64,000 bases of DNA from Candidatus Omnitrophota bacterium (lineage in GTDB: Bacteria; Omnitrophota; Gorgyraeia; Zapsychrales; Zapsychraceae), in NCBI GenBank assembly GCA_029261055.1, contig JAJDCA010000051.1, positions 9,082 to 73,081 on the forward strand. The letters run 5' to 3'. Shown piece after piece: positions 25,201-54,300 of the stretch. The notes under the pieces are model-generated. The model made no database searches. It saw only the letters and a list, made by a program, of their open reading frames with translations, and was not told where the DNA came from. How positions within the stretch are numbered: the stretch's first letter is position 1; every line of letters starts with the position of its first letter. The position numbers and the translations under genes are program-made.

Positions 25201-28200
25201 TCTCTGCAAGAAATTTTTCTGAAGAAATTTTTATCTCAGGGGTTTCGGCCTGACTGGGCATGATGGACAAAAATTCCCTAAATTTCACCTCTTCATTTGC
25301 CCCCTCCGCATTTGTCTTTTTAACAGATGTGTGGGATGGTTGAAATTTAACCGTCTTCTTTTGATTCACAATCTCATACGAGGTATCGATTGTTTCATCG
25401 GCTTTAAGTTTAATCAACTCTGCAAAGAACAAAAAATCAACCTGTTCTTCCTGAGTTAATTCTTCTGTCTGTTGTTTTTCCGCTAAGGCAAAAAACGGTT
25501 CGGCAAACTGCAAAGGAATCGCAATAAAACTATCGGCATCGATGATCGGTAAAGATATCGGATTGTAAAAATCATAAGTGGCTAATGAAAAACTCGTTAA
25601 CGTACCGATCGCTTCTTCGGTAAAGGGCACAGCCACTAAAGGAATATCTTTGTCCTCGCCATTACGCTTACGGGTAAACTTAAAGGTTTGTTTATCCATA
25701 ATACGCGCCCCCATTTTTTTAAGGCTAAACTCCCCGTTCCAGTCAAATAACATAGGGTCTAAATAAACAGCTTTTTGCGCAATTTGGGCATACATCTTTT
25801 GATGCGGCAGAAAAACATACGCCCCCTTTGACTTTATGCCAGCGACCGTTCCGGCGATTTGTTGACGGATGGCCAGTTTAATATCTCGAACAACGGCCTG
25901 ACTCTTCTTATTATCTCCGGCCAGATTATCCAGCCCGGCCGCAATGGTGTTCACATATTTTAACTTTTCTATATCGCTTAACCCCAACTGCTCATTGTTT
26001 AAAATCCCTTCCACCATATGCTCAACGGCCACCTGCATGGGCCACCGGCCGTCATTAGAATAACGTCGTTTTGGAAAATGAATATTGCTCCGGGACGGGG
26101 CAATATCCACAAATCCGTTAAACTCAAGCATCAAAGTCTCCTGGACAAGAGCCTCGGGATTAATATCATCATTATTCATATCTTTCTCAAGGGGGATCGT
26201 TCGCAATACCTCTTCATTTCGCACAAAGGCAACCTTCGCTTTGTTTTCACGGGCATCAGAAATAACCATAACATGTTTAAGAGCCGCTTTAATATCAGAT
26301 TCCTTGACAACTTTAGCTGTTTTATCTCCTTCTCCAGGCACAAACATACGTGATAACTTCACACCATTCATTCCTTTCCCATTATCAATAATTTTAATGG
26401 TGTTCTTTGAGACCAATAATTTAATATCCTTACCTTTTCTGTCCTCTTCCGTAGGGAGAGGTTCCCCTTCAGGAACAAGAATTGTGCGATATTCCCATCC
26501 ATTAACCCGTTTTTCTTCACCCCCTTTTTGTGTGACAATACGCTGCTTCTTGTTATAAGCAAATCTTTCGCGTGCATTATCAATTAATTCACTTTGTGTA
26601 ATTTTGCTTTCTTCATATTCATCCATCTCTTCCGGGATATTACGGCCGGTTTGAATTTCAACAATGGTGCCGTGTTCTAATTCTTGCCCCTCAGCCGCCT
26701 CCCAAAATTGCTCGTGGGTTATTACTTTAATTTGAATGTACACCTGGCCGACGGAGTCTTTGAGCATAGTCAACTGATAAGCCGTATCACCCCCCTCGGC
26801 CAAGGTATACACATCAATACGTCCTTTTATTCCCGTCTCAAGCCAATCCGCGATTTGTTTAATTCCGCGCCCGAATTTTCCAATATCCCCACCCCAAGCA
26901 TCTATACTATTGGCGATAGCTTCCATAATGCCCTGCCCTTTTGGATCCCCGCTCTGAGAATCAACCTCATCCGTAAGGTTTGGTTTGGTATAATGCCCAT
27001 TCAGAATCCAGCCGATACTCTCTTCGGTATATCCATCTTTTACTAATTGCTGCACAATGGCATCATAATAAAATTCTTTTAAGCTCAAGTTAAAATCTTT
27101 TTCTTCTTTTAAAATACCCAAATTACTCAGCAACGATTTTAATTCCAATTCATCCAGCTGATCATCAGCCAGACGCCTTTGAGCCGCGGCAAAATGCTCC
27201 CAATCTATCCCTTTAAAATTTTCTTCCGGTAAGGCATATTCTGTTGCCTGAATTCGATTTTTTATTTTATCCAGTTTTTCCTGATCACCCTGACGGGTAA
27301 TCATGGCGGCATCGGAAAACTTTTCCGGTGGTAAGACTGATACTTTGGCGGATTCATAATCCTTTTGCCCGGTATTTTTAACTTGAGCTTGTATGTTAAC
27401 AAACATAGCCCCATCATCATAAATTCCCTGGATAACATGGAATGGCATCTTCTGTGCCACCAGTAAAATATCTTCCACTTCCTCTCCCATATCCATCCCG
27501 CCAGAAAAATACTTCCGTGGAACAATTGTTTCTGTAACAAAATCATAATCTTCTTTGATGTAGTCATAAACACCTACTTTAAAGGCCTCGAGGTATTGAT
27601 CATAAATTTTCTGTTTGGCCTGTTTGTCTTCAATGTCCACGCCGTCAACTTTGTTCTGGCCGATGTATATTGAGGACAAGGCATGCCTTGTCCCTACAGA
27701 ATTTTTCAATTTTCGTTTGAACCATGTGGCGAGGATCAAGGAATGATAAATCTGGCGGAGCTGGGCGAAATTGGCGCCCTCGTTGACTTCGCGTTCAATT
27801 TCGGGAATGAGGATTTCGCGGATGATGGATGTCGTAGGGGCAACCCTTGTGGTTGCCCTTTCTTTTTTGGCGGGTACAAAGCCCGCCCCTACGTTATGCC
27901 CCATCGCAACATAATCCGCCTCCAACATCACCTTCAACCGCGACTCCACCACAAACGCTGTATTGGTTTCCACATTCTCATACACCACAGCCTCAGACGG
28001 CACAATCCACACCTTGTTAAAGGTATCCACCGGAACATCCATGACGCCATATTCTTCATACGCCCGCTCATGCACCCGATCCCAAAACTCTGCCCCCAAC
28101 TCATCCCCCGGATACATCAATGAGGCAGTAATTTGTTTGAGCAAATAATCTTGGGCCAAAAGATCTCGGCCCATTTCCGTTACTCCAAACTTCTCAGGAA

Positions 28201-28582
28201 TAATACGGTCACTTTCGTACGGACTAAGGTTCACCCACAAATCCTTTTCCGGCACCGTCAGTGAGGCTAAAAAATATTTAATAAGCTTCGAACTCTCCAC
28301 TCTTAAATCTTCACCCTCAGCCTGCCCCTCCCCAGTGTCCACAATAAAATCAAACCGAAACGGTTCCTCCGGAAAAACCTTCAATCCCTTAATCAACACC
28401 GGTGCATACGGCTTACTCAACGATACCATTGCCCCCACTGCAGGAAGATTAACTACTGTTTGCGACTGTGCATTAGCAACTTGTGTCGGATGAATCACAC
28501 TCATCGTAAAAACCGTGATTACCGTAACAGCCACAAAACGAAAAAATAAAGAAAATCGTGTGTTTGTAAAATTAATATTCAT
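19265..28582 (-). CDS. Giant secreted multidomain protein (3105 aa): conserved N-terminal module, two GHKL-like ATPase motif sets, two HExxH zincin-like motifs, putative beta-propeller region
   Basis: Uninterrupted 9.3-kb ORF with a signal peptide (cleavage site ..VANA|QS). N-terminal roughly 370 aa are about 60% identical to the N-terminus of the 51381..54800 protein. Bergerat-fold motifs: EAIANSIDA ... IIDNGKGM, and QNSSDAKA ... ITDDGKGP ... GYFGKGKF. HExxH motifs: LVHELAHFMQ and VIHEQWHS. Confidence 0.8.
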   Translation of the reverse strand: MNINFTNTRFSLFFRFVAVTVITVFTMSVIHPTQVANAQSQTVVNLPAVGAMVSLSKPYAPVLIKGLKVFPEEPFRFDFIVDTGEGQAEGEDLRVESSKLIKYFLASLTVPEKDLWVNLSPYESDRIIPEKFGVTEMGRDLLAQDYLLKQITASLMYPGDELGAEFWDRVHERAYEEYGVMDVPVDTFNKVWIVPSEAVVYENVETNTAFVVESRLKVMLEADYVAMGHNVGAGFVPAKKERATTRVAPTTSIIREILIPEIEREVNEGANFAQLRQIYHSLILATWFKRKLKNSVGTRHALSSIYIGQNKVDGVDIEDKQAKQKIYDQYLEAFKVGVYDYIKEDYDFVTETIVPRKYFSGGMDMGEEVEDILLVAQKMPFHVIQGIYDDGAMFVNIQAQVKNTGQKDYESAKVSVLPPEKFSDAAMITRQGDQEKLDKIKNRIQATEYALPEENFKGIDWEHFAAAQRRLADDQLDELELKSLLSNLGILKEEKDFNLSLKEFYYDAIVQQLVKDGYTEESIGWILNGHYTKPNLTDEVDSQSGDPKGQGIMEAIANSIDAWGGDIGKFGRGIKQIADWLETGIKGRIDVYTLAEGGDTAYQLTMLKDSVGQVYIQIKVITHEQFWEAAEGQELEHGTIVEIQTGRNIPEEMDEYEESKITQSELIDNARERFAYNKKQRIVTQKGGEEKRVNGWEYRTILVPEGEPLPTEEDRKGKDIKLLVSKNTIKIIDNGKGMNGVKLSRMFVPGEGDKTAKVVKESDIKAALKHVMVISDARENKAKVAFVRNEEVLRTIPLEKDMNNDDINPEALVQETLMLEFNGFVDIAPSRSNIHFPKRRYSNDGRWPMQVAVEHMVEGILNNEQLGLSDIEKLKYVNTIAAGLDNLAGDNKKSQAVVRDIKLAIRQQIAGTVAGIKSKGAYVFLPHQKMYAQIAQKAVYLDPMLFDWNGEFSLKKMGARIMDKQTFKFTRKRNGEDKDIPLVAVPFTEEAIGTLTSFSLATYDFYNPISLPIIDADSFIAIPLQFAEPFFALAEKQQTEELTQEEQVDFLFFAELIKLKADETIDTSYEIVNQKKTVKFQPSHTSVKKTNAEGANEEVKFREFLSIMPSQAETPEIKISSEKFLAEKNLEKGYIFIKNNGDTQQLINENGKGIADIKKGAEILQVDENMFLIFKVQEAGSDITRKFLLAASTYSKGKLLSRTWDNSAEGFFLIEYNQRQVLLKSKSTGAYMILPLKENYFNTSDNFILNDLKMANLSPSGRYVIILNSRNDLFVLDPLYQDIQILKIQIAADVRSFYIDPKADVVVYEDVSGKHLYRLEKKRRIDNIDYFFSDQDGEIFIYLSKSEGLVFQSPYGSVANSKQIHMTSNEKETFSLTFKGENHGYFGVVLKGEKHDNSNGWLESFDNLHELNEIIKKYNLPKYWTTYGKDSVGISRITENGMEAVDPDQFQSYENLPNQSDTQLIRLEDQLLVYDKNLEIISASNFDVPLTHKTGMRLESSRDNKVVYAVLPGGEIVDYFYKTGDAIMAGREGVIFITEDRTFILEQYAQGNYRIVNDQGNHVEIVMEGYLNYELVGVSGSVFVFYNSEEGQVKIFDPKAFMESPLSKGTSEQQDIMNQAKDLWEKEVLSRQEQWVQQAEEAYKPFLDLVPEDLRNDLNGEIRALFRKQDEAVTEKYDKAFDLLFQEGSPDWNRLFQRLPLDTFAERMEFIIKALKKDQEKIMKLVNGVSSLLDLNEIWVAFYEKLFSLASNQDVDIQANNIDIKFMEALLFGWNIEIDEHLEAMPLIYKLVKEMKDSTDVVTIRKMVRFLSRISQDKNGLDVMTRQLKQILNHENKDVRQNYLDQWASSFESVEYIDILREFKYPGADQDLNLGEAKKFIVFFTSDVPLVHTRRKIDPVAEEDIVMTKGGVPVEKIAAWNQDKKRSAEEESDLYTIEEMMAAIEQIMAQPDNEKSSQSIADLMKAQEAGRHAAEAAQNSSDAKAVNLVVEHYEDEETGDFVEEITDDGKGPPIGKILAMLIPKSNKEKGGQMGDVSGYFGKGKFALYAGIDRLEIIAKNDGEAYMFTIDVDPSGQQIRLVRVRKLARQGLKNGVMIRRIKKKGNGIAALDQMLSESSWKLFAGMAQREGFTISFVRYKDGKRTLVPLEVRGKKVLAETDFITKSLDTGATTNFGKFRIYMTNDPDVKSQIIDRDGIRVSDIKVKEEFLEFIPEFLRGYFDELGLIIQIPLPLMETRDTFRHEKDYLSKIQKYVAVEFYKALAHKALTDEIFRLKRFDSEWETGRNPSYWKGLTQKESPHLKINQERNTHLFDVVKNINKGQIDVIALSDLKKIGKAFDGKIGVRQQKEQWQESFILFMVQLDVDTENGKRDSLLKRRIKTQMSVNPKEALRVAAEHGIDENELDYISDPYFKERKEKAEKSVEAAKYDAEDYVISPEYFNEQQVSFFEWVKNTVGLIGFTNVKLLNEDFPVSGRFELKRGKVTIYFRTDSVSSFETVNPQSRDLHPLTNTLVHELAHFMQVLKRSSNRENLILNFSNDSTIGHQSRGEFGNFMKLLAAILLAKRFRNDVQGVSFKSKKRGHKGYSVESGLDRAMMIGVGNDSDFEDFSGEEIIRNMDRYIKEWSPEKLQKEKNVLNILIELDTSRDEINNQKEKVRIIHGNFKKVKKAMLLRKEFSFANSFQSRVKVLRKYNKIKLSSQQKKIFKIVKENMPDFDENLVFMIKPGSLLDDIFEFHDSDSIGEFIEIIGGKERQGISLISSIETPLDFLAAVIHEQWHSKDYLSLTGLLGNYLGEGFATYLQEKTLKEVFRKNPEAFEFLSPKYDRELSEEEIENKIISPLLHYGNELRVVKKIINKYGEDFMMALYETGDLTLLKDRMGKRYDFLENIVNQKIGDKNFFSTSLFEKERSRFMKRVLDDMGENEASVENFKRIFGIFQILIKKSIVVFNLKKFSNKEILVDIVNKFLLKVFSENLIEKYELKVMQGGINDEEVKGLLMEEIKQMVEEVLHDKSLLGQDNNLGGIDFNPGNFDLQTNGDKIDFDFPNILVPCFSDENPDCSESELENLNFNINGLTPVIIQMTPVHNLPLLLGVSEEDVAKELSRI

Positions 28583-32607: not shown

Positions 32608-32819
32608 GATAACCTCAAACAGAAAACTTTATTTTTAACTTTATAAATATCATGATATCAGGTTAAGAATGCTTGGCAATAAATAATCTAAAAATTATTT
32701 TTTTGCTAAATGAGAAAGTTTATGGTATTATTTCGTTCAAATAATTTTAGTAATGAAAGTTTTGGAGAGTCCGCCAGCATAGCTGGCGAGACTTCTCCGA
32801 AATTTTCTTTGCAAATTTC

Positions 32820-32909
32820 GGAGAGGTGGCAGAGTGGTTGAATGCAACTGACTGCTAATCAGTTGACCTGGCAACGGGTCCTCGGGTTCGAATCCCGGCC
32901 TCTCCGCCA
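32820..32909 (+). tRNA. tRNA-Ser (anticodon GCU), class II with long variable arm, CCA encoded
   Basis: Cloverleaf folded by hand: acceptor stem GGAGAGG/CCTCTCC, anticodon stem ACTGA/TCAGT with loop CTGCTAA, T-loop TTCGAAT, 3' GCCA. Confidence 0.85.
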
Positions 32910-39384: not shown

Positions 39385-39927
39385 TTAATTATTATTTCCT
39401 TCTTGCTTCTTAAACTCTTCCAACAACCTTTTAATATCCTGGTCTGCATTGCGCGCGACCTGAGTGCAAATAAAAATCAAAAGAGAAAACTGCCAACAAT
39501 CTTCAGGCCCCTTGATAAGACCTGTCTGCACATTTTCTTCTTTTTGTAAAATATTTTCGTAATGCTTAATAGCGCCTGAGAGCTTACCTTCATGAATATC
39601 CAAAGACATTGTTTTATTATCATAGCGCAATGATGGCATACGTACACCACGAACAAGGAGAAAATTAATCAAAGAATTTTCATCAATTCTTTCCTCTTCA
39701 CCAAATTCAAAACCTTGAAACTGTGGATGATTGGGCGGAACAATAATGGAAGGTTTCTCGACAACAACCTCTCCTTTACGTACAATCGTATCTCCCACAT
39801 TAATAGTCGATTCTGATAATAAAATATACGGTACGTGCGTATCGCCCAACGTCAAAAGAGCCTGAATACGCGACCGGATAATTTCCGTACTTTTTAAAGC
39901 TTTATACCAAGATTTCTCAAAACTCAT
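39385..39927 (-). CDS. Hypothetical protein (180 aa)
   Basis: ORF with gene-like codon periodicity and spacing; no recognizable motifs. Confidence 0.4.
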   Translation of the reverse strand: MSFEKSWYKALKSTEIIRSRIQALLTLGDTHVPYILLSESTINVGDTIVRKGEVVVEKPSIIVPPNHPQFQGFEFGEEERIDENSLINFLLVRGVRMPSLRYDNKTMSLDIHEGKLSGAIKHYENILQKEENVQTGLIKGPEDCWQFSLLIFICTQVARNADQDIKRLLEEFKKQEGNNN

Positions 39928-40016: not shown

Positions 40017-40109
40017 CTGGCGGAGGAGGAGAGATTCGAACTCTCGAGCCATCTTACGACAGCCACACGCTTTCCAAGCGTGCGCCTTCAACCACTCGGC
40101 CACCCCTCC
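40017..40109 (-). tRNA. tRNA-Ser (anticodon GGA), class II, CCA encoded
   Basis: Reverse complement is GGAGGGGTGGCCGAGTGGTTGAAGGCGCACGCTTGGAAAGCGTGTGG...GAGAGTTCGAATCTCTCCTCCTCCGCCA. Anticodon stem CACGC/GCGTG, loop TTGGAAA. Confidence 0.85.
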
Positions 40110-40228
40110 AAAATTTGTCCATCAATGAAAAGGCAGTATACTAGGGACTTTACGAAATATCAAGAATTTTGAATGTATTAAGAAATAATATTAAAGGACA
40201 TCCTTAACTCGTGTGCTTGGGTATAATT

Positions 40229-41242
40229 CTACTCCCCATTTTTCTTCCCCGTAATCCGCCTTATTTCTTTATCAAAGTCGGAAATGTAATCTTTATCCTG
40301 TTGAATACGATACGCTTCATATTCCTTATGCGCCAAAGCTAAAGCCACTTCATGACTGATTGAACCCGCATTAGTCAAAATTTCATATTCGCTGAATTTT
40401 AAAAAAGCATTCAACTTTTTAATCCAATCTTTCATATACATTGGAATATTACGAATAGCCTGTAATTCCGCAAAATCTAAATACATCGTAACAATACGGT
40501 TTAGATGATCGAGTTCCGGTTTGTTTAAATAATTCTTGGCCGTGGCAACGTCACTTGGCAGAACTTTACCCTTGGGCTCTTTTCGCCATGCCGTTAACCC
40601 CATATTAGGTTTGGCACTATTGGCCCGTTTGGCAACAATTTCAGCGGCAGTTTTTCCGGTAATGGCAAAATGCAGTTTATTTTGAACGGTCGCAAAAAAC
40701 TTTTTTGTATCTTCAGCCTTAGCAGAATAATCCATCGAAGTGGCATAAATATCTGTAATTTTTTGATACATCATCCTTTCGCTTGAACGAATATCTCTTA
40801 TTTCTTCAAGCAAATCATCGAAAAATCGGGTGCTGAAGCGAGAACCATATTTAAAACGGTTACTATCAATAGCGAAGCCTTTATGTATATATTTCTGGAG
40901 AATTGTAATAGCCCATTGCCTAAATTGTGTACCCCGCTGAGAATTAACTCTATACCCTACAGCAATAATGGCCTCTAAAGAATAGAATTTTGTTTGATAT
41001 TTTTTACCATCTTCGGCAGTATGTGCAAATTTTGCACATACTGTATTTTCTTCTAATTCTTGCTCTAGAAAAATATTTTTAAGATGTTTAGTAATAACCG
41101 TTCTATCCACATCAAATAATTCCGCTATTCGTTTTTGAGGCAACCAAATATTCTCCTTAGCATACAACACCTCAATATTAACACCCCCCTCACCGGTTTG
41201 ATATACAGCAATCTGATCATCTGGTATTTTCTTTCTTTTCAT
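40229..41242 (-). CDS. RhuM-family (virulence/defense-island associated) protein
   Basis: IAVYQTGEGGVNIEVLYAKENIWLPQKRIAELFDVDRTVITKHLKNIF...YRVNSQRGTQFRQWA is collinear with the RhuM family N-terminal consensus. Confidence 0.7.
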   Translation of the reverse strand: MKRKKIPDDQIAVYQTGEGGVNIEVLYAKENIWLPQKRIAELFDVDRTVITKHLKNIFLEQELEENTVCAKFAHTAEDGKKYQTKFYSLEAIIAVGYRVNSQRGTQFRQWAITILQKYIHKGFAIDSNRFKYGSRFSTRFFDDLLEEIRDIRSSERMMYQKITDIYATSMDYSAKAEDTKKFFATVQNKLHFAITGKTAAEIVAKRANSAKPNMGLTAWRKEPKGKVLPSDVATAKNYLNKPELDHLNRIVTMYLDFAELQAIRNIPMYMKDWIKKLNAFLKFSEYEILTNAGSISHEVALALAHKEYEAYRIQQDKDYISDFDKEIRRITGKKNGE

Positions 41243-41326
41243 CTAAATATTTTCTTTTTGAACTGTTAGGAACCTATCAAAAAACCTTCCTGATCCGTGT
41301 AAGTTGCTTTGGCAATAGCCGACTTT

Positions 41327-41977
41327 TCAGCGAATTTCTGTTGATTTCAATTTCTTCACCCTATCATCAATCATACTTTTAAATTTACTATTTTTAAGAT
41401 TTTCTGAAACTTCTTCATACTTCATGTCTGCTAATTTAGCCAACTCTTTCCGACAAGAAAAACTAAATTTTTCTAAATTATCTCTTCTAATACTTAGTGA
41501 CTTATCAAAATCTGAAATCTCAGCAACAACCTTATAAAAAGCAAAAAGAATTTTCCTTGGAGCATAAATTATTAACTTACTACTCAATAAAACATCTAAT
41601 TCAAATAAAATATTTATTAACTTACTCACATAATTTATTTCTTCTTGATGAAAATCCGTATTTAATCCAGGTTTCTTTCCAGTTAACTCTAACCTAAGAA
41701 ATTCATGTGCTTTATTAAGAACCTCTTCAATTAGCTCATAATTCTTTTCTAAATTATAATGATGTTTTTTGACTTCCTTTTCTAAATTATGTTTAAGGGT
41801 CAACATAGACCATGCAGCAAAAAATGAAAAAATAACCTGTAAGTTCTCATCAGGAAGTAGCCATTTTATTAAATATAAAAGAATGCCAATAAAAAAAAGA
41901 AAAATAATTACTGATAACAATTTATTCTTTTTTTTAAAATCTTGCCATTTTTTATAAGTTTTATTTAGAATATCCAT
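41327..41977 (-). CDS. Hypothetical membrane protein (N-terminal TM helices, coiled-coil tail)
   Basis: Two predicted TM segments (LLSVIIFLFFIGILLYLIKWLL; FSFFAAWSMLTL). No known motifs. Very AT-rich compared with its neighbours. Confidence 0.4.
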   Translation of the reverse strand: MDILNKTYKKWQDFKKKNKLLSVIIFLFFIGILLYLIKWLLPDENLQVIFSFFAAWSMLTLKHNLEKEVKKHHYNLEKNYELIEEVLNKAHEFLRLELTGKKPGLNTDFHQEEINYVSKLINILFELDVLLSSKLIIYAPRKILFAFYKVVAEISDFDKSLSIRRDNLEKFSFSCRKELAKLADMKYEEVSENLKNSKFKSMIDDRVKKLKSTEIR

Positions 41978-42130
41978 ATTTTAAAGGACTACAAAAGTAC
42001 TACACTCGATTAATTTTTCTTATTTTTGAGCAGATACTTATTGACTATTTTTACGTTGTAAATATATGACATTGAAAAGGTTATGTCATAAGTTGGTGGG
42101 ATTTAAAATGTTGTAAAAGCTGCCAAGCAT

Positions 42131-42171
42131 TCTTTCCAAGCGTGCGTCTTCAACCACTCGGGCACCCCTCC
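42131..42171 (-). pseudogene. Truncated tRNA-Ser(GGA) copy: 5' half through the anticodon loop only
   Basis: GGAGGGGTGCCCGAGTGGTTGAAGACGCACGCTTGGAAAG is identical to the 40017..40109 tRNA over about 40 nt with 2 mismatches, then diverges. The upstream-flank motif ATATCAAGAATTTT is shared too. Confidence 0.7.
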
Positions 42172-42276
42172 CAAACTTTTTTCAAATTCATTAATCAGAA
42201 ATTGAACGAGCGATAAGCATACTAAAGCCTACCCAAAATATCAAGAATTTTAGACATGTTATCAGTTAATATTTTT

Positions 42277-44560
42277 TTATTTCACTTCTATATTATCAAG
42301 ATAGACATCTTGCTGACGCGCCTCAATTTCAAACGTACTGACATTAATTGCACTGCTATTACGACTCAACGTCACCTGGTCACCAAAGGCAGTTACTATA
42401 AATGTTGTTGGACTGAAATCGACGACTATAGAATATATATTTCCCTGAACAAACTCACTAGCAAAGAAAACACTTTCAACAACCCGACCTCCAACAATCT
42501 TTTCTACAGCCTTGGTTCCATAACCATCAGTATTTCTGATCCTGTAATAATTATTGGCATCTTGCTTTAAGTTTATCGTAATAATTCCTCCAAGAGGATG
42601 TTTTTTCACAGGTTCAAAATCCACCTTAAACGCTCCTGTATCCGTCGCGGATATATTCTGCCCAATTTTTAAACCAATATTATCTCCTGTTACCACCTTG
42701 GCCCTTTGCCCTACGCTATCATACACAAACCGACCGGTGCCTCCGGCTGTCCACGTATCCGTCACTGTATATGCACCGATCGTATCCGTGCTAAAATCAT
42801 CGAAAAATAACGATGCTGGTGGTGGCTGAACGTCAGACCGTACCTCGATGTTGTCATAATAGGCATCTTGTTGACTTGTCGTAATTTCAAACGCACTAAC
42901 GTTAATGGCACTACCATTACCACTCAAGGTCACCTGATCACCAAAGGCCCTCACCGTCATCGTTGTAGGACTAAAATTAACAACTATAGAATATTTAGTC
43001 CCCTGTATATACTCACTGGCAAAAAAGACTCTTTCAACAACCCGTCTTCCAACTACTTTTTCAACACTCCTTGGACCATAACCGTCAGTATTACTAATTC
43101 TGTAATAATTACCAGCATCTTGATTTAAACTTATCATAAGACCGCCACCAGCCGGATATTTCTTCACAGGTTCAAAATCCATTTTAAACGTTCCTGTATC
43201 CGTCGCGGGTATACTCTGCCCGATTTTTAAACCAATATTATCTCCTGTTACCACTTTGGCCCTTTGCCCGGTGCTATCATACACAAACCGACCGGTGCCT
43301 CCGGCTGTCCACGTATCTGTCACTGTATATGCTCCGGTCGTGTCCGTACTGAAATCATCAAAGAACAATTGTGGATTACCGACCACATCATTAACCGTAA
43401 TGGTAATTTCTTCAAAAACCATATCCACACCATCACTCACCTCAAAACGCACTCCATCATACACCCCTGACTGATCAAAATTTGGCGTCCAACTAAATAT
43501 CTGCGTAGCGGAATTAAAACTTGCTCCATCGGGAAGAGACAATGCTGCATACGTCAATGGTTCGCCATCATCATCCGTGGCGGTTACCGTAAAACTTAAT
43601 GTTTCCCCTTCATCCACCACCTTATTGCCAATAGTATTTAATACAGGAGGATTATTAGGCTGAATGTCAGATCGCACCTCGATATTATCATAATAAGCAT
43701 CTTGCTGACTTGTCGTAATTTCAAACGCACTAACATTAATGGCGCTGCCATTACCACTCAAGGTCACCTGATCACCAAAGGCCCTCACCGTCATCGTTGT
43801 AGGATTAAAATTGACAACTATAGAATATTTAGCCCCCTGTATATACTCACTAGCAAAAAAGACTCTTTCAACAACCCGTCTTCCAACTACTTTTTCAACA
43901 CTCCTTGGACCATACCCGTCGGTATTACTAATCCTGTAATAATGATCGGCATCTTGCCTTAAATTTATCATAAGGCCTCCACCAGCCGGATATTTCTTCA
44001 CAGGTTCAAAATCCACCTTAAACGTTCCTGTATCCGTCGCGGGTATACTCTGCCCGATTCTTAAACCAATATTATCCCCTGTTAACACTTGACTTCTTTG
44101 CCCTGCACCATCATACACAAATCGACCGGTTCCTCCTGATGTCCACGTATCCGTCACCGTGTACGATCCTGTCGTATCCGTACTAAAGTCATCAAAGAAC
44201 AATTGTGGATTACCGACCACATCATTAACCGTAATGGTGATTTCTTTAAAATCTATATCCTTTCCATCACTCACCTCAAAACGTACTCCATCATACACCC
44301 CTGACTGATCAAAACCTGGCGTCCAACTAAATATCTGCGTAGCGGAATTAAAACTTGCTCCATCGGGAAGAGACAAAGCTGTATACGTTAATGGCTCTCC
44401 ATCAACATCGGTGGCTGTTACTATAAAACTTAGTGTTTGTCCTTCATCCACCGATTTATTTTCAATAGGATTTACTACCGGGGAATTATTTGGGAGCTCA
44501 TAAACAAAAATATCAGCATTCCCGTTTCTAAAATCTTCCCACACAATACGTCTTGTGTCG
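42277..44560 (-). repeat. Tandem 834-bp coding repeats (three copies, two nearly identical) at the 3' end of the S8 protease gene
   Basis: The antisense ORFs at 42868..43128 and 43702..43962 are near-identical, which marks the period. The protein shows (Ig-like + X domain) x2 followed by a third X domain. Confidence 0.8.
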
Positions 44561-47169
44561 ATGGCCGGATTCTGTTGTAATGAAGGTTCCGTCGTCACAA
44601 ATTGAGTTGTGTCATTGGCTATATTGTAAACATAAATATCTCCATTTCCATTTCGGAAATCTTTCCAAACAACATAATTCTTGGCGACAACAGGTCTAAG
44701 CCCTTTTTGACCATTGGATAAAATGGTCTTTTCAACACCCGTTGTAATGTCGTAAAGAATAATACTAGATGTCTCATTAAGCGTCCTTTCCCACACAATC
44801 CAATCACCGGAAATATCCGCATTCCAATCCACCAGGCTGTTCTGTGTAATTCGCTTTTCTCCACCCGTTGAAATAGCATACATATAAATATCCGAATTTC
44901 CGTTTCGAGAATCTTCCCAAACGATTTTATCGCCCGATATAGCCGGTCTTAATTGATTTACCAAAGAATTCGTAATTTTCTTCTCTATACCAATTGTGAC
45001 ATCATAAAGGTAAATATCCCAATTGCTATCACGCAGATCTTGCCAAACAATTTTATTACCTGAAATATCTGGTTTAGTTTGAACGGCTGAATTGCTTGTA
45101 ATTTGCTGTTCCACACCCGTGGTTATATCATACAGAAAAATATCTGCATCCACGTTGCGCCAATCTTCCCAAACAATCAAATCACCTGAAATAGAAACAT
45201 TAACTTGTTCTTTAAGATCTGTTGTAATTTGCTTTTCCTGGCCTGTAGAAAAATCATAAAGAAAAACATTCGCATTAAAATTTCTAAAATCAATCCACGC
45301 AACTCTTTGCCCCGAAATCACGGGAAACTCTTGAGTAAAAATATTTGTTGTAATTTGCTGAACACCCGGGTTGCGTATCCAGGTCTTTACTTCAACAATA
45401 TCTTCAAACTCTCTCGCAGTTGAATCTGTGGCAACCAGCCGCAGTAAAAATTGCCCCACACCTACTTCATTTAAACCCCACGCACCTAAAGAACCATCAT
45501 CTATGGGAGTGGTCACCACCGGCCCAATTGGAAACCAATTCCCCAACTTATTTAAATTTCTATAAGATAATTGATAGTGTTGAAATGCATCTCCTGTGGC
45601 TGCCCCATCGATAAGTATTGAACTATTTTCATTTGATATTTCTATTTGAACCCCAGAATTAGGATAATTAATTTTAGCTTTAAGCACAGAGTTAATATTA
45701 AGAGCTTGTTCCGCATTAATGCGGCCATAACCGGAATTAAAATCAAAACCCGGACTATCAATGTCATCCGCTGAAACACGAAGAACCTGGCTAATATCAT
45801 CATTTGTAAAAGTTGGTTGATGTGCTGCAATCAAGGCTGCAAGTCCGGTAACATGAGGTGCTGCCATTGATGTTCCGGATTTAAATCCATACTTATCTGC
45901 CAGGGTTGTTGACAAAACGCTTCTTCCAGGAGCTGCTACGATGACCGATCCTCCAAAATTTGAAAAACTGGCTTTATTATCATTTGAATCTGAAGCCGCT
46001 ACCGTTATGGTTTCACTCATATTTTGAGGACTCTTTAAAGATACGTCTACCGCCTCATTTCCAGCTGAAAAAACGACCACCACACCTGAATTATATGCAG
46101 CCTTTACAGCAGCTTCCGCCACAGGGTTGCTGGGGCATATTTCTTTGCATCCCCAGCTATTATTAATTACCTCTGCTCCATTCTTTACGGCATAAAAAAT
46201 ACCCTCAGCTAAATCGGAAGTGAACCCTGTTCCTGCATCAGAAAACCCCTTAACCGGCATAATCGTAGCCTGTGGCGCGACACCAATCACACCTATACCA
46301 TTATTACCAACAGCGGCAATTGTTCCTGCGACATGACTCCCATGAGAATGCTTATCCATAGGATCGTTATCATCATTTCCAAAATCCCATCCGTGAACAT
46401 CATCGATATGCCCATTCTCATCATCATCAATACCATTCGTTTCTTTGTCATTATCATCGCTGTCTATTCCCGTCTCACCTGTATTCGTCCAAATATTTGC
46501 AGCTAAATCTTCGTGCAAATAATTTACCCCTGTATCCACTACAGCGACAAAGACACCCTGCCCCTGATTAACATCCCAAGCCATTTCGGTCTGAATCTTT
46601 TCCAATCCCCATAAATTCCTGTCAAGAAACCTTGGATCATTAGGAAGAAAGGCTGGCGTCATCAGATAATCCGGCTGAGCATATTCGACATGCGGATCGC
46701 TTTGATAATGCTGACAAATTTTTTCAATATCACTCTCTTCAGGTACTTCAAAAACATACACGTTAGATAAATCCGGCAGGGCAGGGCCATCGACAGCGCC
46801 TAACAAATGGGGTTGAATCTTAAAATTTGCTTTTTGTAACTGACTTTCTATTTTGTTTTTAGCCTGGCTGGTTGACAGCTTGTCCCGTTTGACAAATAAA
46901 CTTCGTGCATTCTTTACTTTATAATGTTGATTAAGATTATCGATAGAAGTACTGTGATCGTTGAAAGCATTTTGAAATTTTTGGCGGTTACTTAAAAGAC
47001 AATGGGCACAGGTTCGCAAAGCCTCCCTTCCATCACTTTTAAATTTTACAATAAAGCGACCTTTAGCAAAATTTGTGTCAGGCTTTTTTGATATTGCTTG
47101 CTGTGCGTTTAATGTCGTAATAAACAATAATCCCAAAGCAATCCCCAACACGGTAAATACTTTTTTCAT
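42277..47169 (-). CDS. Secreted giant subtilisin-like serine protease (S8) with I9 propeptide, Ca-binding Asp-rich insert, 7 TolB/PD40-like beta-propeller repeats and a triplicated C-terminal module
   Basis: Signal peptide; catalytic triad motifs VAVVDTGV / HGSHVAGT / GTSMAAPHV; seven DIYLYD..TG..KIT repeats; C-terminal Ig-like plus roughly 200-aa unknown domain in tandem copies. Confidence 0.85.
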   Translation of the reverse strand: MKKVFTVLGIALGLLFITTLNAQQAISKKPDTNFAKGRFIVKFKSDGREALRTCAHCLLSNRQKFQNAFNDHSTSIDNLNQHYKVKNARSLFVKRDKLSTSQAKNKIESQLQKANFKIQPHLLGAVDGPALPDLSNVYVFEVPEESDIEKICQHYQSDPHVEYAQPDYLMTPAFLPNDPRFLDRNLWGLEKIQTEMAWDVNQGQGVFVAVVDTGVNYLHEDLAANIWTNTGETGIDSDDNDKETNGIDDDENGHIDDVHGWDFGNDDNDPMDKHSHGSHVAGTIAAVGNNGIGVIGVAPQATIMPVKGFSDAGTGFTSDLAEGIFYAVKNGAEVINNSWGCKEICPSNPVAEAAVKAAYNSGVVVVFSAGNEAVDVSLKSPQNMSETITVAASDSNDNKASFSNFGGSVIVAAPGRSVLSTTLADKYGFKSGTSMAAPHVTGLAALIAAHQPTFTNDDISQVLRVSADDIDSPGFDFNSGYGRINAEQALNINSVLKAKINYPNSGVQIEISNENSSILIDGAATGDAFQHYQLSYRNLNKLGNWFPIGPVVTTPIDDGSLGAWGLNEVGVGQFLLRLVATDSTAREFEDIVEVKTWIRNPGVQQITTNIFTQEFPVISGQRVAWIDFRNFNANVFLYDFSTGQEKQITTDLKEQVNVSISGDLIVWEDWRNVDADIFLYDITTGVEQQITSNSAVQTKPDISGNKIVWQDLRDSNWDIYLYDVTIGIEKKITNSLVNQLRPAISGDKIVWEDSRNGNSDIYMYAISTGGEKRITQNSLVDWNADISGDWIVWERTLNETSSIILYDITTGVEKTILSNGQKGLRPVVAKNYVVWKDFRNGNGDIYVYNIANDTTQFVTTEPSLQQNPAIDTRRIVWEDFRNGNADIFVYELPNNSPVVNPIENKSVDEGQTLSFIVTATDVDGEPLTYTALSLPDGASFNSATQIFSWTPGFDQSGVYDGVRFEVSDGKDIDFKEITITVNDVVGNPQLFFDDFSTDTTGSYTVTDTWTSGGTGRFVYDGAGQRSQVLTGDNIGLRIGQSIPATDTGTFKVDFEPVKKYPAGGGLMINLRQDADHYYRISNTDGYGPRSVEKVVGRRVVERVFFASEYIQGAKYSIVVNFNPTTMTVRAFGDQVTLSGNGSAINVSAFEITTSQQDAYYDNIEVRSDIQPNNPPVLNTIGNKVVDEGETLSFTVTATDDDGEPLTYAALSLPDGASFNSATQIFSWTPNFDQSGVYDGVRFEVSDGVDMVFEEITITVNDVVGNPQLFFDDFSTDTTGAYTVTDTWTAGGTGRFVYDSTGQRAKVVTGDNIGLKIGQSIPATDTGTFKMDFEPVKKYPAGGGLMISLNQDAGNYYRISNTDGYGPRSVEKVVGRRVVERVFFASEYIQGTKYSIVVNFSPTTMTVRAFGDQVTLSGNGSAINVSAFEITTSQQDAYYDNIEVRSDVQPPPASLFFDDFSTDTIGAYTVTDTWTAGGTGRFVYDSVGQRAKVVTGDNIGLKIGQNISATDTGAFKVDFEPVKKHPLGGIITINLKQDANNYYRIRNTDGYGTKAVEKIVGGRVVESVFFASEFVQGNIYSIVVDFSPTTFIVTAFGDQVTLSRNSSAINVSTFEIEARQQDVYLDNIEVK

Positions 47170-51380: not shown

Positions 51381-54300
51381 CTAATTCAAACGCGACACAT
51401 TATACTCTTCATTTTCTTCATTACGAGGTACAAGGCCTAAGAGGGGTAAAATACTATTAATCGGCGTAAAATCCATAAACACCGGTGAAAACACAACACC
51501 ATCCTCGAGCAAGGGCTCCAACTGCGCAGGGTCAAATTGAATGTCCACCCCGCTACCCCCTCGATTGAGGTCGATTTCGTTCATGTCGATACCACCGACC
51601 ATTGAATCATCGACATCATCTTTATCTTCTTTGAAAATATGATTACTTAGCCAACTTTCCCTACCCTTCAAAACAGCATCAGCAAATTCCCGAGAAAATT
51701 CTGCAGGTTTTTTTGACTGGGTAATCGCGGCATTTACCAAAACAGCATTAAACCCCATTTCCATAGCTTCTTGCGCATGTTCAGGGGAACTTATGCCTGC
51801 CTCAGCAATTAATTGAATATCAGGTCGAATCCCTCTAGACCAAATCATAATATTTTTTATTAATTTTTTACCCTCTTCTGTTCCCAATCCACCACCTGAG
51901 CCTGGTTGTGTGCCTTCGATACGCAACCCAACGACTTGTTTTAATTCTAGTATTTCGTTTAACATTTTTTTAGACATTGTTTTTCCAATTAAGGGGAAAA
52001 TCTTAATATCCTTATTAAGATTAACCAACACTTTAACAGCATCAATGATGTCATTATTTTTTGTCATTAGATTGTCATCTCTAATTTCAAGTTTAAGGTA
52101 AGGCGTTTGTACTAATTGGACTCCTAGCGCTGCCATTATTATAGCTTCCTCTTGGTTTTGAACTCTACTAGTGTTAACCATCGTGATAAATTCTTTTGTT
52201 TCACCTAACCGCAACAATTCTTTATGCGTTGATTCTATATAAGGAACCCGCACATCTTCTGGCAATGTATTTAAACTCCCTGATTTACCTAACTTAGAAA
52301 ACCCTGCATTACTTTTAAATTTAGTATCTTGTAATATTTTTTTTGCCTCTTTAAAAGATGTTGTTTTTTTTAATTCTCTGACATCTCCTGGAAGAAAAAT
52401 AAATACTTGGGACCCAGATTCTAAAACAATATCGCGCGAAACGTTTGGAGAAAGTGTAGCAATACAAGTAGCATCAGAACAATTGTCATTACGCATATGC
52501 GTTATTGCCGTTGGAGAAATTAAAGGAAATAACTCCACCCCATTAATAACAAACCGAGTATAATTTTGAACTTCGACTACCTCTACATCAATAGTTTCCG
52601 CTGATTCAAGCTCAATTTCTCTCATGAGCCACTCTCTAATTTGGCCTTTATAATACTTAACTCCGTTATAATCACTAAAATTCCTCAAACCTCCCCAAAA
52701 ACCTCCAAACTTTAACCCGATAAATGTTTCACTTACAGATGCTTCTAACTTTACTACTTTAGAGAAAGCCTTAGCTATTTCTGTTGCAACATTTAGATAA
52801 TGCTTAAGAAGCTCTTTTTTCTTTTCCTTACTTACTCCCCCAAAAGGCAACATTTTCAAGGATATTGCCACGCCACCGTATAAATGAGATGTCCTATCTA
52901 ATTCATATACCATGTCTCGCATTATCGTTTCACGCAAAGACATCTCAGGCGCATTTTCCTCTTCCTTCTTTCTGACCATCGCCTTATCAAAATACTTTCC
53001 TAAATCATCCCAATCTATTTCTTCAGTATTGTTTATAATTAAATCTTTTCCTAATTGCGGAATCTCAGAATTTAATTTTTCATATGTTTTTGAAGAAAAT
53101 GTTGATCCTTCAACCATGAGGACCACTTTTCTATTTTGCTCAGCACGTTTACGCAGTCTTTCTTGCCTTGTCTCCTCATTGACATGAAATAATACTTCCA
53201 CGTCTGGTTCAATATTATTATTTAAATAAGCCGATGTCTCTACGCCTACGAAAAAAGCAATCTTTCTATCCCACATTTCTGTCTTCACAATTTTATTAAA
53301 AGGAGCATCCCGATCATTCAAAAATATTTCGTAACCCTCTCCAGCAACCGAGTTATCAGTAAGAGAATAGATAATATCTTTTTTAAAAAATCTTTTTAAC
53401 AATATATCTTCTACAAATGTCTTAATAAAAGTTTTCTTACCTGTACCGCTTAAACCTGCAATTCTAATAAATAACGCTCTTTTTTCATTATGCGAAGCTA
53501 ATTTTTTATCAATTATGTCCAAAAGCTCTTTGCTTCCCTCAAATACATTTTTGGATTTAACATACCCTTTTTTAATCTTTTCTTCAAAAGTCATCGTCGA
53601 AGCATCCACCTCATCTTTCTTCGGTGTTACACTCATCGCAAAGTCAAAGGTAGCGCCTACAATTGAATTTTCAATTTGTGTTGGATTAAAAGCTGGGGTG
53701 AATCGCATGGCAGCATCTTTGAATCCCCCTGAGAAATACTTCCTCGGGATGACTTCCTGGCTTAATGTATCGTACTCTTCCTTAATATAATCAAACACCC
53801 CTGTCTTAAACGCTTGCATGTATCGATCATAAATTTGATTGTTAACCGTCTTGTCTTCAATCGCAACACCAGCGACTTTGTTTTGGTCAACGTAGACTTG
53901 GAAAAGGATACTTCCTTTGATGGTTTCTTTGTACCATTTGGCGAGGATCAGGGAATGGTACATCTGTCGTAGTGATGCGAAATTTTGGCCTTCGTTGACT
54001 TCGCGTTCGATTTCGGGAAGGATGATTTCGCGAATGATTTCGGTGGAATCCCCTCGCAACTGATCTTCACCGAAGGTTGCTCGGGGCTCGGCGTTGGAAT
54101 TATTATTGTTCAACGCCTCGTAATCTTCCTCCAACATCACTTTCAGCCGACTGTTAACGATGTACACCGTATTCTCATGCTCATACACCGTTGCACTCTC
54201 CGGCATGATCCAAACTTTGTTAAAGGTGTTCACTGGGATTTCTGTCACCCCATATTCTTTCTCGGCTCGTTCATAGACCCTCGCCCAAAATTTTTCCCCC

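What the first reader, a model, noticed from the sequence alone, without database searches (positions are those of the whole stretch)
40017..42260. RhuM-containing mini-island flanked by tRNA-Ser(GGA) and a diverged direct repeat of the tRNA 5' half plus its upstream flank
The roughly 40-nt 5' half of tRNA-Ser(GGA), through the anticodon loop, recurs at 42131..42171 with 2 mismatches. The roughly 75 nt upstream of each copy are also related; both contain ATATCAAGAATTTT and GYATACTARRG.

Between the copies lie a RhuM-family gene (typical cargo of defense and virulence islands) and an AT-rich membrane-protein gene. No integrase is present.

Most tRNA-targeting integrases duplicate the 3' part of the tRNA, so a 5'-half duplication is atypical. 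That suggests either an old, decayed insertion or a different mechanism. The RhuM protein plus the small membrane protein could form a two-gene defense module.
Basis: partly seen in the sequence, partly recalled or inferred. Interest (0 to 1): 0.6.

Follow-up and report, generated by a model that had tools for sequence, protein, structure and literature searches.

The report
Small integrase-less island at tRNA-Ser gene
A 2-kb piece of foreign DNA carrying a RhuM gene and an orphan membrane-protein gene sits in front of a serine tRNA gene of an Omnitrophota bacterium, bounded by a leftover copy of the tRNA's first 40 bases and its promoter; this is an uncommon but already known way for mobile DNA to insert.

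Summary
tRNA-Ser(GGA) lies at 40018..40109 on the minus strand. Its nucleotides 1-40, through the anticodon loop, recur at 42132..42171 with 2 mismatches. About 100 nt of upstream flank is also repeated, with conservation concentrated on a TTGATA-17-TATRCT promoter.

Between the copies lie an intact RhuM gene and a 216-aa ORF with one transmembrane helix, 25% GC and no homolog in 1.84 billion representative proteins.

The host is an Omnitrophota MAG. In 32 of 80 related genomes the tRNA abuts the same conserved 180-aa gene, so the insertion is on the tRNA's 5' side.

RhuM is 80-86% identical to proteins of archaea and other phyla, where it sits inside type I restriction-modification operons. 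It is therefore horizontally acquired.

Best reading (about 0.55): a remnant or non-autonomous island inserted by anticodon-loop site-specific recombination, using an attP that carries a promoter plus the tRNA 5' half. This '5'-fragment' configuration makes up 159 of 3919 Islander islands. No integrase is present, and no empty site could be found.

The proposed 'two-gene defence module' has no comparative support.

Five-prime tRNA-Ser fragments recur in related genomes, and a recombinase-like gene sits next to tRNA-Ser there. This adds modest interest.

The parts
40018..40109 (-). Intact tRNA-Ser(GGA) with encoded CCA. Under the integration model, nt 1-40 (40109..40070) come from the element and the 3' part is native.
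   Evidence: ARAGORN. Rfam tRNA, 57 bits. The 3' half is 98% identical to that of the closest relative, L007.
40110..40192 (-). Proximal upstream flank with a promoter-like site: -35 TTGATA at 40163..40158, a 17-nt spacer, and -10 TATACT at 40140..40135. It lies 25 nt from the tRNA start.
   Evidence: (D1).
40229..41242 (-). RhuM-family gene, 337 aa, full length, same direction as the tRNA.
   Evidence: PF13310, E=1.6e-105. PADLOC candidate PDC-S05, E=6e-142. 80-86% identity to homologs in archaea and other bacterial phyla.
41327..41977 (-). Orphan ORF of 216 aa with one N-terminal transmembrane helix. The rest is predicted helical. 25% GC.
   Evidence: no homolog. (low-confidence all-helical model). 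(hydropathy; chance of an open frame 2.5e-9).
41978..42131 (-). Junction region on the element side of the distal repeat. It contains TTTTACAACA (42118..42109), which is shared with the equivalent junction in locus L058. It also has an 8-bp inverted repeat and a promoter-like site at 42089..42061.
42132..42171 (-). Displaced copy of tRNA-Ser(GGA) nt 1-40. Its 2 mismatches (G10C, G25A) both break D-stem pairs, so it is not a functional tRNA.
   Evidence: (D2). D-stem mapping was read from the sequence.
42172..42273 (-). Distal upstream flank, which fills the whole spacer after the S8 protease gene. It has a promoter-like site: -35 TTGATA at 42244..42239, a 17-nt spacer, and -10 TATGCT at 42221..42216. 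It points into the 5'-half copy and the two cargo genes.
   Evidence: (D1).
39385..39927 (-). Conserved 180-aa gene (no Pfam family) that marks the native 3' side of the tRNA.
   Evidence: Homologs at 53-74% identity across Omnitrophota. tRNA-Ser(GGA) lies within about 450 nt upstream of it, on the same strand, in 32 of 80 loci.
42277..47169 (-). Upstream neighbour: a 1630-aa S8 subtilase with internal repeats. It is outside the island.
   Evidence: No counterpart at this position in the related loci.

Best explanation
This is a small island of about 2.06 kb, either non-autonomous or decayed. It entered tRNA-Ser(GGA) by conservative site-specific recombination in the anticodon loop.

The incoming DNA carried an attP made of a tRNA-Ser promoter region plus tRNA nt 1-40. 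After recombination this part was joined to the native 3' half, giving the working tRNA at 40018..40109. The native promoter and native 5' half were pushed about 2 kb upstream, to 42132..42273.

The cargo is an orphan RhuM gene, of a kind that normally rides inside type I restriction-modification loci, and a unique small membrane-protein gene. Both point the same way as the tRNA, downstream of the displaced native tRNA promoter, which may now drive them.

The recombinase is no longer in the island. It was either lost by internal deletion or acted in trans.

Shown:
- the repeat anatomy;
- the break at the anticodon loop;
- the foreign origin of RhuM;
- the conserved native 3' junction;
- the absence of an integrase.

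Inferred:
- the recombinase mechanism;
- which copy is native;
- promoter co-option;
- any defence function.
For: 1. The configuration is exactly the one defined for tDNA islands with a 5' fragment. There is an intact tDNA and a terminal 5' fragment upstream of it in the same orientation. 159 of 3919 Islander islands are of this type, and 2083 have anticodon-centred attP sites.

2. Identity runs from the tRNA 5' end through the anticodon loop and then stops dead. The two copies share an identical 15-nt core, CGCACGCTTGGAAAG, covering the anticodon stem strand and loop.

3. The tRNA-to-180-aa-gene junction is ancestral. It is found in 32 of 80 relatives, so the new DNA lies on the 5' side.

4. 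The cargo is foreign.
- RhuM is 80-86% identical to proteins from Methanoperedens, ANME-2, Spirochaetes and others. Host core proteins are at most about 77% identical to the nearest Omnitrophota.
- The ORFan is 25% GC against 39.6% for the window.

5. The flank is far more diverged than the tRNA half: 17/58 versus 2/41 mismatches, p=0.0035. Its conservation is concentrated on the promoter elements: 1/19 versus 7/17 mismatches in the spacer, p=0.016. This is expected if the two promoters diverged while both were working tRNA promoters in separate lineages.

6. The same locus is an insertion hotspot in relatives.
- L029 has a RhuM homolog in a classical 3'-fragment island abutting the 180-aa gene.
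- L038 and L058 have Bro-N genes there.

7. Other Omnitrophota loci carry 5' tRNA-Ser fragments of at least 30 nt, all ending at tRNA nt 31-44. L023 encloses 3.8 kb of cargo. Such 5' fragments number 16 for 142 tRNA-Ser genes and 0 for 48 other tRNA genes.

8. In L058 the fragment looks like the usual GGA type, while the working tRNA's 5' half is only 64% identical to it. This is expected if the working half came from elsewhere. The window and L058 share the junction 10-mer TTTTACAACA. It occurs only 3 times in 2.3 Mb searched.

9. A tyrosine-recombinase-like gene family lies immediately 5' of tRNA-Ser genes, in the same direction. This holds in 8 of 80 genome loci and in about 30 of 36 metagenome loci.
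Against: - There is no integrase gene in the island, within about 10 kb on either side, or (for the tRNA-Ser-linked family) anywhere in the 64-kb window.
- No empty site, circular junction or second copy of the element was found. Exact junction patterns gave 0 hits in viral and metagenome contigs, and no conspecific genome is available.
- In the relatives that have the recombinase-like gene, the 5' fragments lie between that gene and the tRNA rather than distal to it. No complete '5' fragment - cargo - integrase - tRNA' island was seen.
- About half of that family lack the first catalytic arginine.
- Most 5' fragments in relatives enclose only 60-240 nt and no genes.
- In L058 and L128 the fragment continues past a short insertion in the anticodon loop. 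A simple crossover does not predict this.
- The two window copies resemble each other more than any relative's flank. This also fits an in-place duplication.
Confidence: 0.55

Rival explanations
1. In-place partial duplication followed by an unrelated insertion. A roughly 140-nt unit (tRNA promoter plus tRNA nt 1-40), or a whole tandem tRNA gene, was duplicated by slippage or unequal crossing-over. RhuM and the ORFan then landed between the copies by illegitimate or homologous recombination. No site-specific recombinase was involved.
For: - The two flanks are each other's closest match and resemble no relative's flank.
- Omnitrophota tRNA-Ser leaders are prone to duplication. L028 has four 100%-identical 71-nt units of flank plus tRNA nt 1-13.
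- Short, cargo-less 5' fragments are common in relatives.
- No integrase is present.
Against: - It needs two independent events, and the cargo would have to land exactly at the duplication junction.
- No trace of a 3' half remains.
- Breakpoints cluster at the anticodon arm in all nine fragments of at least 30 nt.
- The flank is much more diverged than the tRNA half, and the divergence spares the promoter elements.
- The junction motif is shared with L058.
Confidence: 0.25
2. The 5'-half copy is a functional RNA element rather than a scar. It would be a member of the tRNA-mimicking leader structures that precede tRNA-Ser genes in this phylum, here serving as a 5' leader for the RhuM operon.
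For: - Acceptor-mimic hairpins with covariation precede many Omnitrophota tRNA-Ser genes, including the window's tRNA-Ser(GCT).
- The distal promoter is kept.
Against: - The distal copy has no complementary 3' arm and does not match the leader motif.
- Its two substitutions break D-stem pairs rather than compensate each other.
- It is a near-exact tRNA half, not a hairpin.
Confidence: 0.07
3. RhuM and the 216-aa membrane protein form a dedicated two-gene defence system. The island exists to carry it.
For: - The two genes are adjacent, co-directional and 84 nt apart.
- RhuM matches the PADLOC defence candidate PDC-S05.
- RhuM genes are enriched in type I R-M loci.
Against: - The partner has no homolog in 5.8 billion clustered proteins or in 1.84 billion representatives.
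- The three nearest RhuM homologs examined have different neighbours (hsdM, hsdS, hsdR, DUF1016, AAA proteins).
- L029's RhuM is followed by unrelated ORFs.
- GC content differs strongly between the two genes, 36% versus 25%.
Confidence: 0.08
4. Assembly artefact: a chimeric join at a conserved tRNA sequence.
For: Logan contigs from the same run break inside the tRNA, at window 40081-40093. The tRNA core is identical in several Omnitrophota species.
Against: One independent contig (40081..42694) contains the distal copy, both cargo genes, the proximal flank and the first 29 nt of the full tRNA. Only the join to the tRNA 3' part depends on the MAG assembly. That junction matches the order conserved across the phylum.
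Confidence: 0.03

Closest known systems
tRNA-gene genomic islands with a displaced 5' tDNA fragment (Islander census: 159 of 3919 islands; anticodon-centred attP class)
   Same: There is an intact tRNA gene at one end and a cognate terminal 5' fragment upstream in the same orientation. The break is at the anticodon loop, the cargo between is foreign, and the length is just above Islander's 2-kb floor.
   Different: It has no integrase gene, which Islander requires. It is only 2 kb with two genes. The repeat extends about 100 nt into the promoter region, with diverged sequence.
Integrase-less, att-flanked elements mobilised in trans (cis-mobilisable elements, such as the CIMEs of Streptococcus thermophilus; named from my own knowledge, not tested here)
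   Same: Short cargo is bounded by attL- and attR-like repeats, with no recombinase of its own. The two copies keep an identical 15-nt core, so excision by a recombinase acting in trans remains conceivable.
   Different: No cognate integrase-bearing partner element was identified in the window. Mobility is unproven.
RhuM-family genes embedded in type I restriction-modification operons
   Same: It is a full-length PF13310 protein, 80-86% identical to homologs lying between hsdS and hsdR or next to hsdS. RhuM is reported as enriched in, and embedded within, type I R-M loci.
   Different: Here the gene is alone: no hsdR, hsdM or hsdS was found among the genes scanned within about 10 kb on either side. 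The molecular function of RhuM is unknown. It has no solved relatives and no usable model.
Integron platforms (recombinase gene, attachment site and a resident promoter that expresses captured cassettes)
   Same: This is an analogy only. The cargo sits downstream of a resident strong promoter (the displaced tRNA promoter). In relatives, a recombinase-like gene sits next to the tRNA-Ser site.
   Different: There is no IntI-type integrase, no attC sites and no cassette array. The recombinase-like gene is absent from the window. This was not tested beyond anatomy.

Membership tests
tDNA-integrated genomic island (Islander/Williams criteria) | Intact tRNA gene at one end | tested here: met
   ARAGORN and Rfam call tRNA-Ser(GGA) at 40018..40109.
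tDNA-integrated genomic island (Islander/Williams criteria) | Cognate terminal tDNA fragment, in the same orientation and on the correct side (a 5' fragment upstream of the tDNA) | tested here: met
   tRNA nt 1-40 are repeated at 42132..42171 on the same strand, upstream.
tDNA-integrated genomic island (Islander/Williams criteria) | Break at a canonical crossover sublocation (anticodon loop or T-loop/acceptor junction) | tested here: met
   Identity ends one base after the 7-nt anticodon loop. There is no 3'-half similarity.
tDNA-integrated genomic island (Islander/Williams criteria) | Tyrosine integrase gene inside the island | tested here: not met
   There are only two ORFs, RhuM and the ORFan. 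None of the neighbouring genes is an integrase. tblastn with the tRNA-Ser-linked recombinase found no hit in the window.
tDNA-integrated genomic island (Islander/Williams criteria) | Foreign origin of the enclosed DNA | tested here: met
   RhuM is 80-86% identical across phyla and domains. The ORFan is 25% GC against 39.6% for the window.
tDNA-integrated genomic island (Islander/Williams criteria) | Presence/absence polymorphism or an excision junction | not testable with these tools
   The species occurs in one sample only. The nearest relatives are at most 74% identical in the adjacent core protein. Junction patterns gave no hits.
RhuM family (Pfam PF13310; PADLOC candidate PDC-S05) | Full-length match above the curated threshold | tested here: met
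   352 bits against a cut-off of 33.7, covering profile positions 2-249 of 252. PDC-S05, E=6e-142.
RhuM family (Pfam PF13310; PADLOC candidate PDC-S05) | Anti-phage or other demonstrated activity | not testable with these tools
   PDC-S05 is only a candidate. There is no solved structure, and the AF2 model has pLDDT 47.
Type I R-M-embedded RhuM | Location between or next to hsdM, hsdS and hsdR | tested here: not met
   The neighbours here are a tRNA, an ORFan and an S8 protease. The nearest homologs are embedded in R-M operons.
Two-gene defence module (RhuM + membrane partner) | Partner gene conserved next to RhuM in other genomes | tested here: not met
   The partner has zero homologs. RhuM has different neighbours elsewhere.
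tRNA pseudogene from a whole-gene tandem duplication | Residual similarity over the whole tRNA length | tested here: not met
   3' half against the distal downstream sequence: score 10 versus 11.3 +/- 2.0 in shuffles. No match anywhere in the island.
Omnitrophota tRNA-Ser leader hairpin (acceptor mimic; described here) | A copy of the tRNA's 5' acceptor strand paired to a downstream CTTCTCC-type arm within about 100 nt upstream of the tRNA | tested here: not met
   The motif searches find it before the window's tRNA-Ser(GCT) but not before tRNA-Ser(GGA) or at the distal copy.

The most novel reading that the evidence does not exclude
Omnitrophota may have a dedicated system that works on the 5' side of tRNA-Ser genes. 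Its parts would be:
- a recombinase-like gene that sits next to tRNA-Ser;
- elements that bring their own promoter plus tRNA 5' half and share a junction motif (TTTTACAACA);
- displaced native tRNA promoters that then express whatever cargo was inserted.

This would be a cassette-capture platform built on a tRNA gene, with the window's RhuM islet as one loaded example. The covarying acceptor-mimic leader hairpins before tRNA-Ser genes could be part of the same system.
Probability: 0.12. Interest if true: 0.7.

Novelty: new member of a known kind. Interest (0 to 1): 0.35.

Why it matters
On its own this is a modest case. It is a clean, very small example of the minority 5'-fragment type of tRNA-gene island, in a poorly studied phylum. 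It is also an example that integrase-dependent island finders would miss.

It shows what such an element must carry: a promoter as well as the tRNA 5' half. It also shows a plausible side effect: the displaced native tRNA promoter ends up pointing into the cargo.

The wider pattern in relatives would matter more if it proves to be one system. That pattern consists of 5' fragments only at tRNA-Ser genes, a recombinase-like gene fixed next to tRNA-Ser(CGA), and structured tRNA-mimicking leaders. That part is not established here.

Tried and rejected
- **Remnant of a tRNA-Ser(CGA) or tRNA-Ser(TGA) gene.** Relatives have such genes upstream of tRNA-Ser(GGA). Rejected: the copy is GGA-type and closest to the window's own tRNA.
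- **Decayed full-length tRNA copy.** Rejected: there is no 3'-half similarity.
- **Empty site or attP search.** Exact junction patterns gave 0 hits in viral and metagenome contigs.
- **tRNA-Ser(GGA) 5'-half pattern in viral contigs.** It returned 17 loci, all with complete tRNA genes, so nothing was learned about 5'-type attP sites.
- **Partner conservation for the 216-aa ORF.** There are no homologs in the word-indexed 5.8-billion set or in the exhaustive 1.84-billion HMMER search.
- **Structure prediction.** The ORFan model (pLDDT 54.6) and the RhuM model (pLDDT 47.0, shallow alignment) were too poor for fold searches, so none were run.
- **PDB sequence and profile searches for RhuM.** Nothing was found.
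- **Complete '5' fragment - cargo - integrase - tRNA' island.** Among 38 metagenome loci of the recombinase-like family none was found. Fragments lie between the gene and the tRNA.
- **Which 5' half is native.** Comparison with relatives was not decisive for the window. It was informative only for L058.
- **Literature searches for explicit descriptions of 5'-end tRNA integration.** These were hampered by prime characters. Only the Islander table gave numbers.
Full report
**What is there**

The window carries three tRNA genes. tRNA-Ser(GGA) lies on the minus strand at 40018..40109 and scores 57 bits against the Rfam tRNA model.

Read in the tRNA's direction, the order is:
- a 1630-aa S8 protease gene (ends at 42277);
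- about 100 nt of flank;
- a copy of tRNA nt 1-40 (42171..42132);
- 153 nt of spacer;
- a 216-aa ORF (41977..41327);
- a RhuM gene (41242..40229);
- about 120 nt of spacer;
- the complete tRNA;
- a conserved 180-aa gene (39927..39385).

**Checking the observation**

- The tRNA-half repeat is 91% identical over 47 nt, with 2 mismatches within the 40 tRNA positions (D2). A 28-nt pattern from it occurs only at these two places, and no shuffle of the window produced a match.
- The flank repeat is 71% identical over 58 nt and is displaced by a 19-nt indel. It is far above shuffled expectation (score 35 versus 17.4 +/- 2.7).
- The copy is clearly of the GGA type.
- Similarity ends one base after the anticodon loop. 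The 3' half of the tRNA has no detectable counterpart beside the copy or anywhere in the island.
- Both mismatches (G10C and G25A) fall in the 3-bp D stem and break pairs, so the copy is not a working half (read).
- An independent Logan contig covers 40081..42694. It contains both copies and the cargo, so the arrangement does not depend on the MAG assembly.

**The organism and the native locus**

The 180-aa protein has hundreds of homologs in Omnitrophota, the best at only 74% identity. The species is therefore represented once.

I fetched 80 genome loci around this gene. The conserved order is tRNA-Ser(TGA), tRNA-Ser(CGA), tRNA-Ser(GGA), the 180-aa gene, an M16 peptidase, a T2SS-type ATPase, tRNA-Arg(ACG) and tRNA-Ser(GCT).

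tRNA-Ser(GGA) lies within about 450 nt upstream of the 180-aa gene, on the same strand, in 32 of the 80 loci. In the window the gap is 91 nt. The 3' side of the tRNA is therefore ancestral, and the extra DNA is on its 5' side.

**The cargo**

*RhuM.* It is a full-length PF13310 protein and matches the PADLOC defence candidate PDC-S05. It is 80-86% identical to proteins annotated from Methanoperedens, ANME-2, Spirochaetes, Clostridiales and Thermodesulfobacteriota. By contrast, the neighbouring core proteins are at most about 77% identical to any Omnitrophota relative. That contrast shows horizontal acquisition.

In the three nearest contexts I looked up, RhuM lies just upstream of hsdR in two type I R-M operons and a few genes downstream of an hsdS gene in the third. 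This agrees with a published enrichment of RhuM genes in such loci. In the window it is alone.

*The 216-aa ORF.* It has no Pfam family. It has no homolog in the word-indexed search or in an exhaustive HMMER search of 1.84 billion representatives. It has one strong transmembrane segment and is 25.2% GC. An open frame of this length would arise by chance with probability about 2.5e-9, so it is probably a real gene.

*Limits.* Neither protein gave a usable structure model, and RhuM has no solved relative. A dedicated RhuM-plus-partner module is therefore unsupported.

**The promoters**

Both flank copies contain a sigma-70-like site on the tRNA strand:
- TTGATA-17-TATACT at 40163..40135;
- TTGATA-17-TATGCT at 42244..42216.

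The A-tract, the -35 and the -10 elements differ at 1 of 19 positions. The 17-nt spacer differs at 7 of 17 (p=0.016). The distance from the -10 to the tRNA start is 25 nt in one copy and 44 nt in the other.

Overall the flank is much more diverged than the tRNA half (17/58 versus 2/41 mismatches, p=0.0035).

This pattern fits two homologous tRNA promoters that diverged while both were under selection. It fits neutral decay of a fresh local duplicate less well.

No terminator-like site was found on the tRNA strand between the distal promoter and the cargo. The displaced promoter could therefore read through the half-tRNA into the ORFan and RhuM. That is an inference.

**Mechanism**

A tRNA gene plus a cognate terminal fragment in the same orientation is the signature of tyrosine-integrase islands. 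The Islander paper states that a 5' fragment upstream of the tDNA is a legitimate configuration. It counts 159 such islands among 3919, and 2083 islands with anticodon-centred attP sites.

In conservative recombination the displaced fragment is the native one, and the regenerated gene takes its corresponding part from the element. Applied here:
- the distal copy and its flank are native;
- the working tRNA carries an element-borne promoter and 5' half;
- the element spans roughly 42131 down to 40070.

The two copies keep an identical 15-nt core over the anticodon stem strand and loop.

The missing piece is the recombinase. There is none in the island, and none among the ten neighbouring genes scanned.

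**Evidence from relatives**

*The locus is a hotspot.*
- L029 has a RhuM homolog (53% identity) followed by a 3' tRNA fragment abutting the 180-aa gene. This is a classical island at the same site.
- L038 and L058 have Bro-N genes between the tRNA and the 180-aa gene.

*5' fragments recur.*
- 5' tRNA-Ser fragments occur upstream of complete tRNA-Ser genes in L023, L014, L059, L058, L026, L015, L128 and others.
- L023 encloses 3.8 kb with one 1155-aa gene.
- All nine fragments of at least 30 nt end at tRNA nt 31-44.
- As a control, 142 tRNA-Ser genes have 16 5'-type and 11 3'-type fragments. 48 other tRNA genes have no 5'-type and four 3'-type fragments.

*L058 fits the prediction.*
- Its fragment resembles the usual GGA type, but the working tRNA's 5' half is only 64% identical to it.
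- The window and L058 share TTTTACAACA 10-13 nt beyond the anticodon arm. This 10-mer occurs three times in 2.3 Mb of sequence searched.

*A recombinase-like family is linked to tRNA-Ser.*
- A tyrosine-recombinase-like family (PF00589 plus PF13102) sits directly 5' of a tRNA-Ser gene, in the same direction. This holds in 8 of 80 genome loci and in about 30 of 36 metagenome loci.

**Caveats**

- In those loci the 5' fragments lie between the recombinase-like gene and the tRNA, not beyond it. I found no complete island of the predicted form.
- About half of the family lack the first catalytic arginine, and the histidines are not conserved, although the second arginine and the tyrosine mostly are. 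Some members may be domesticated.
- Most fragments enclose only 60-240 nt.
- In L058 and L128 the tRNA similarity resumes after a short insertion in the anticodon loop.
- L028 has a 100%-identical tandem array of 71-nt units containing tRNA nt 1-13. This shows that local duplication also operates at these leaders.

For these reasons I keep an in-place duplication plus a separate insertion as a serious rival (0.25).

**Comparison and verdict**

The feature matches a tDNA island on every structural criterion except the integrase, and the polymorphism test cannot be run. It works like a 5'-fragment tDNA island that has lost its recombinase or depends on one in trans.

I file it as a new member of a known kind. 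It is uncommon (about 4% of mapped tDNA islands), very small, and invisible to integrase-dependent finders. Interest is modest (0.35).

The more novel possibility is a tRNA-Ser-specific 5'-side capture system in Omnitrophota. The evidence does not exclude it but only hints at it (probability 0.12).

Noticed in passing
window 32764..32826 (+), upstream of tRNA-Ser(GCT) at 32820..32909: There is a two-hairpin leader. H1 is GGAGAGTCCGCCAGC-ATA-GCTGGCGAGACTTCTCC, and its 5' arm copies the tRNA acceptor 5' strand. H2 pairs CTTCTCCGAAATTT with AAATTTCGGAGAGG, and its 3' arm includes the first seven bases of the tRNA. The two hairpins and the acceptor stem are mutually exclusive.

A strict version of the motif precedes 13 of 129 distinct tRNA-Ser genes and 0 of 46 other tRNA genes in Omnitrophota loci. 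RNAalifold on 12 examples gives 27 pairs, 12 of them with compensatory changes. No Rfam family matches.
   Followed up: partly
L022:3405-4412, L025:2512-3621, L041:3478-4527, L015:826-1866, and L104-L139: A tyrosine-recombinase-like gene family with a very conserved N-terminus (MGxxxKIxxxYYIEFxARGLxYQQK) lies about 100-200 nt upstream of a tRNA-Ser gene, usually tRNA-Ser(CGA), and points the same way. This holds across distantly related Omnitrophota. The first catalytic arginine is lost in about half of the members, which suggests partial domestication. The family is absent from the window.
   Followed up: partly
L028:4110-4402: There is a tandem array of 71-nt units at 100% identity. Each unit is made of upstream flank, tRNA-Ser(GGA) nt 1-13, and a hairpin with a TTCGA loop that closes on an acceptor-like stem, like a tRNA minihelix.
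   Followed up: no
L058:4169-4245 and L128:11100-11290: 5' tRNA-Ser fragments are interrupted in the anticodon loop by a short GC-rich insertion of 16 to about 30 nt. After it, the 3' strand of the anticodon stem resumes before the similarity ends. L128 has two such units in tandem.
   Followed up: no
window 42162 and L023:2029: The displaced 5' fragments in the window and in L023 both carry the same G10-to-C change relative to their working tRNA. The chance of this is roughly 0.05. It could be coincidence, or conversion from the GTGCC-type D arm of the CGA and TGA isoacceptors.
   Followed up: no
L029:107-2440; L038:5019-5960; L058:4574-5410: The tRNA-Ser(GGA)-to-180-aa-gene junction has been invaded repeatedly. 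L029 has a RhuM homolog plus a ParB-N-like ORF, ending in a 3' tRNA fragment. L038 and L058 have Bro-N domain genes.
   Followed up: partly
window 40229..41242 and proteins P0123-P0241: This RhuM subfamily is unusually uniform: 79-86% identity among Omnitrophota, Methanoperedens, ANME-2, Spirochaetes, Clostridiales and Thermodesulfobacteriota. This points to very recent or very frequent transfer between domains.
   Followed up: no
window 42277..47169 (-): The 1630-aa S8 subtilase has three near-identical C-terminal modules of roughly 250-300 aa (FFDDFSTDT..YTVTDTWT.GGTGRFVYD ... YYDNIEV) and two He_PIG/cadherin-like repeats. The Logan contig breaks inside these repeats.
   Followed up: no
window 19265..28582 and 51381..54800; L023:2232-5699: A family of very large proteins (3105, 1139 and 1155 aa) shares a conserved stretch of about 360 aa at 55% identity. 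The L023 member is the sole cargo between a 5' tRNA-Ser fragment and its tRNA.
   Followed up: no
L025:2074-2483 versus 4171-4383; L135, L121: In some loci tRNA-Ser(TGA) and tRNA-Ser(CGA) flank the recombinase-like gene directly. In L025 the two tRNAs also share similar upstream and downstream flanks. The two anticodons differ by one base, so the CGA gene may have arisen by an element-associated duplication of the TGA gene.
   Followed up: no
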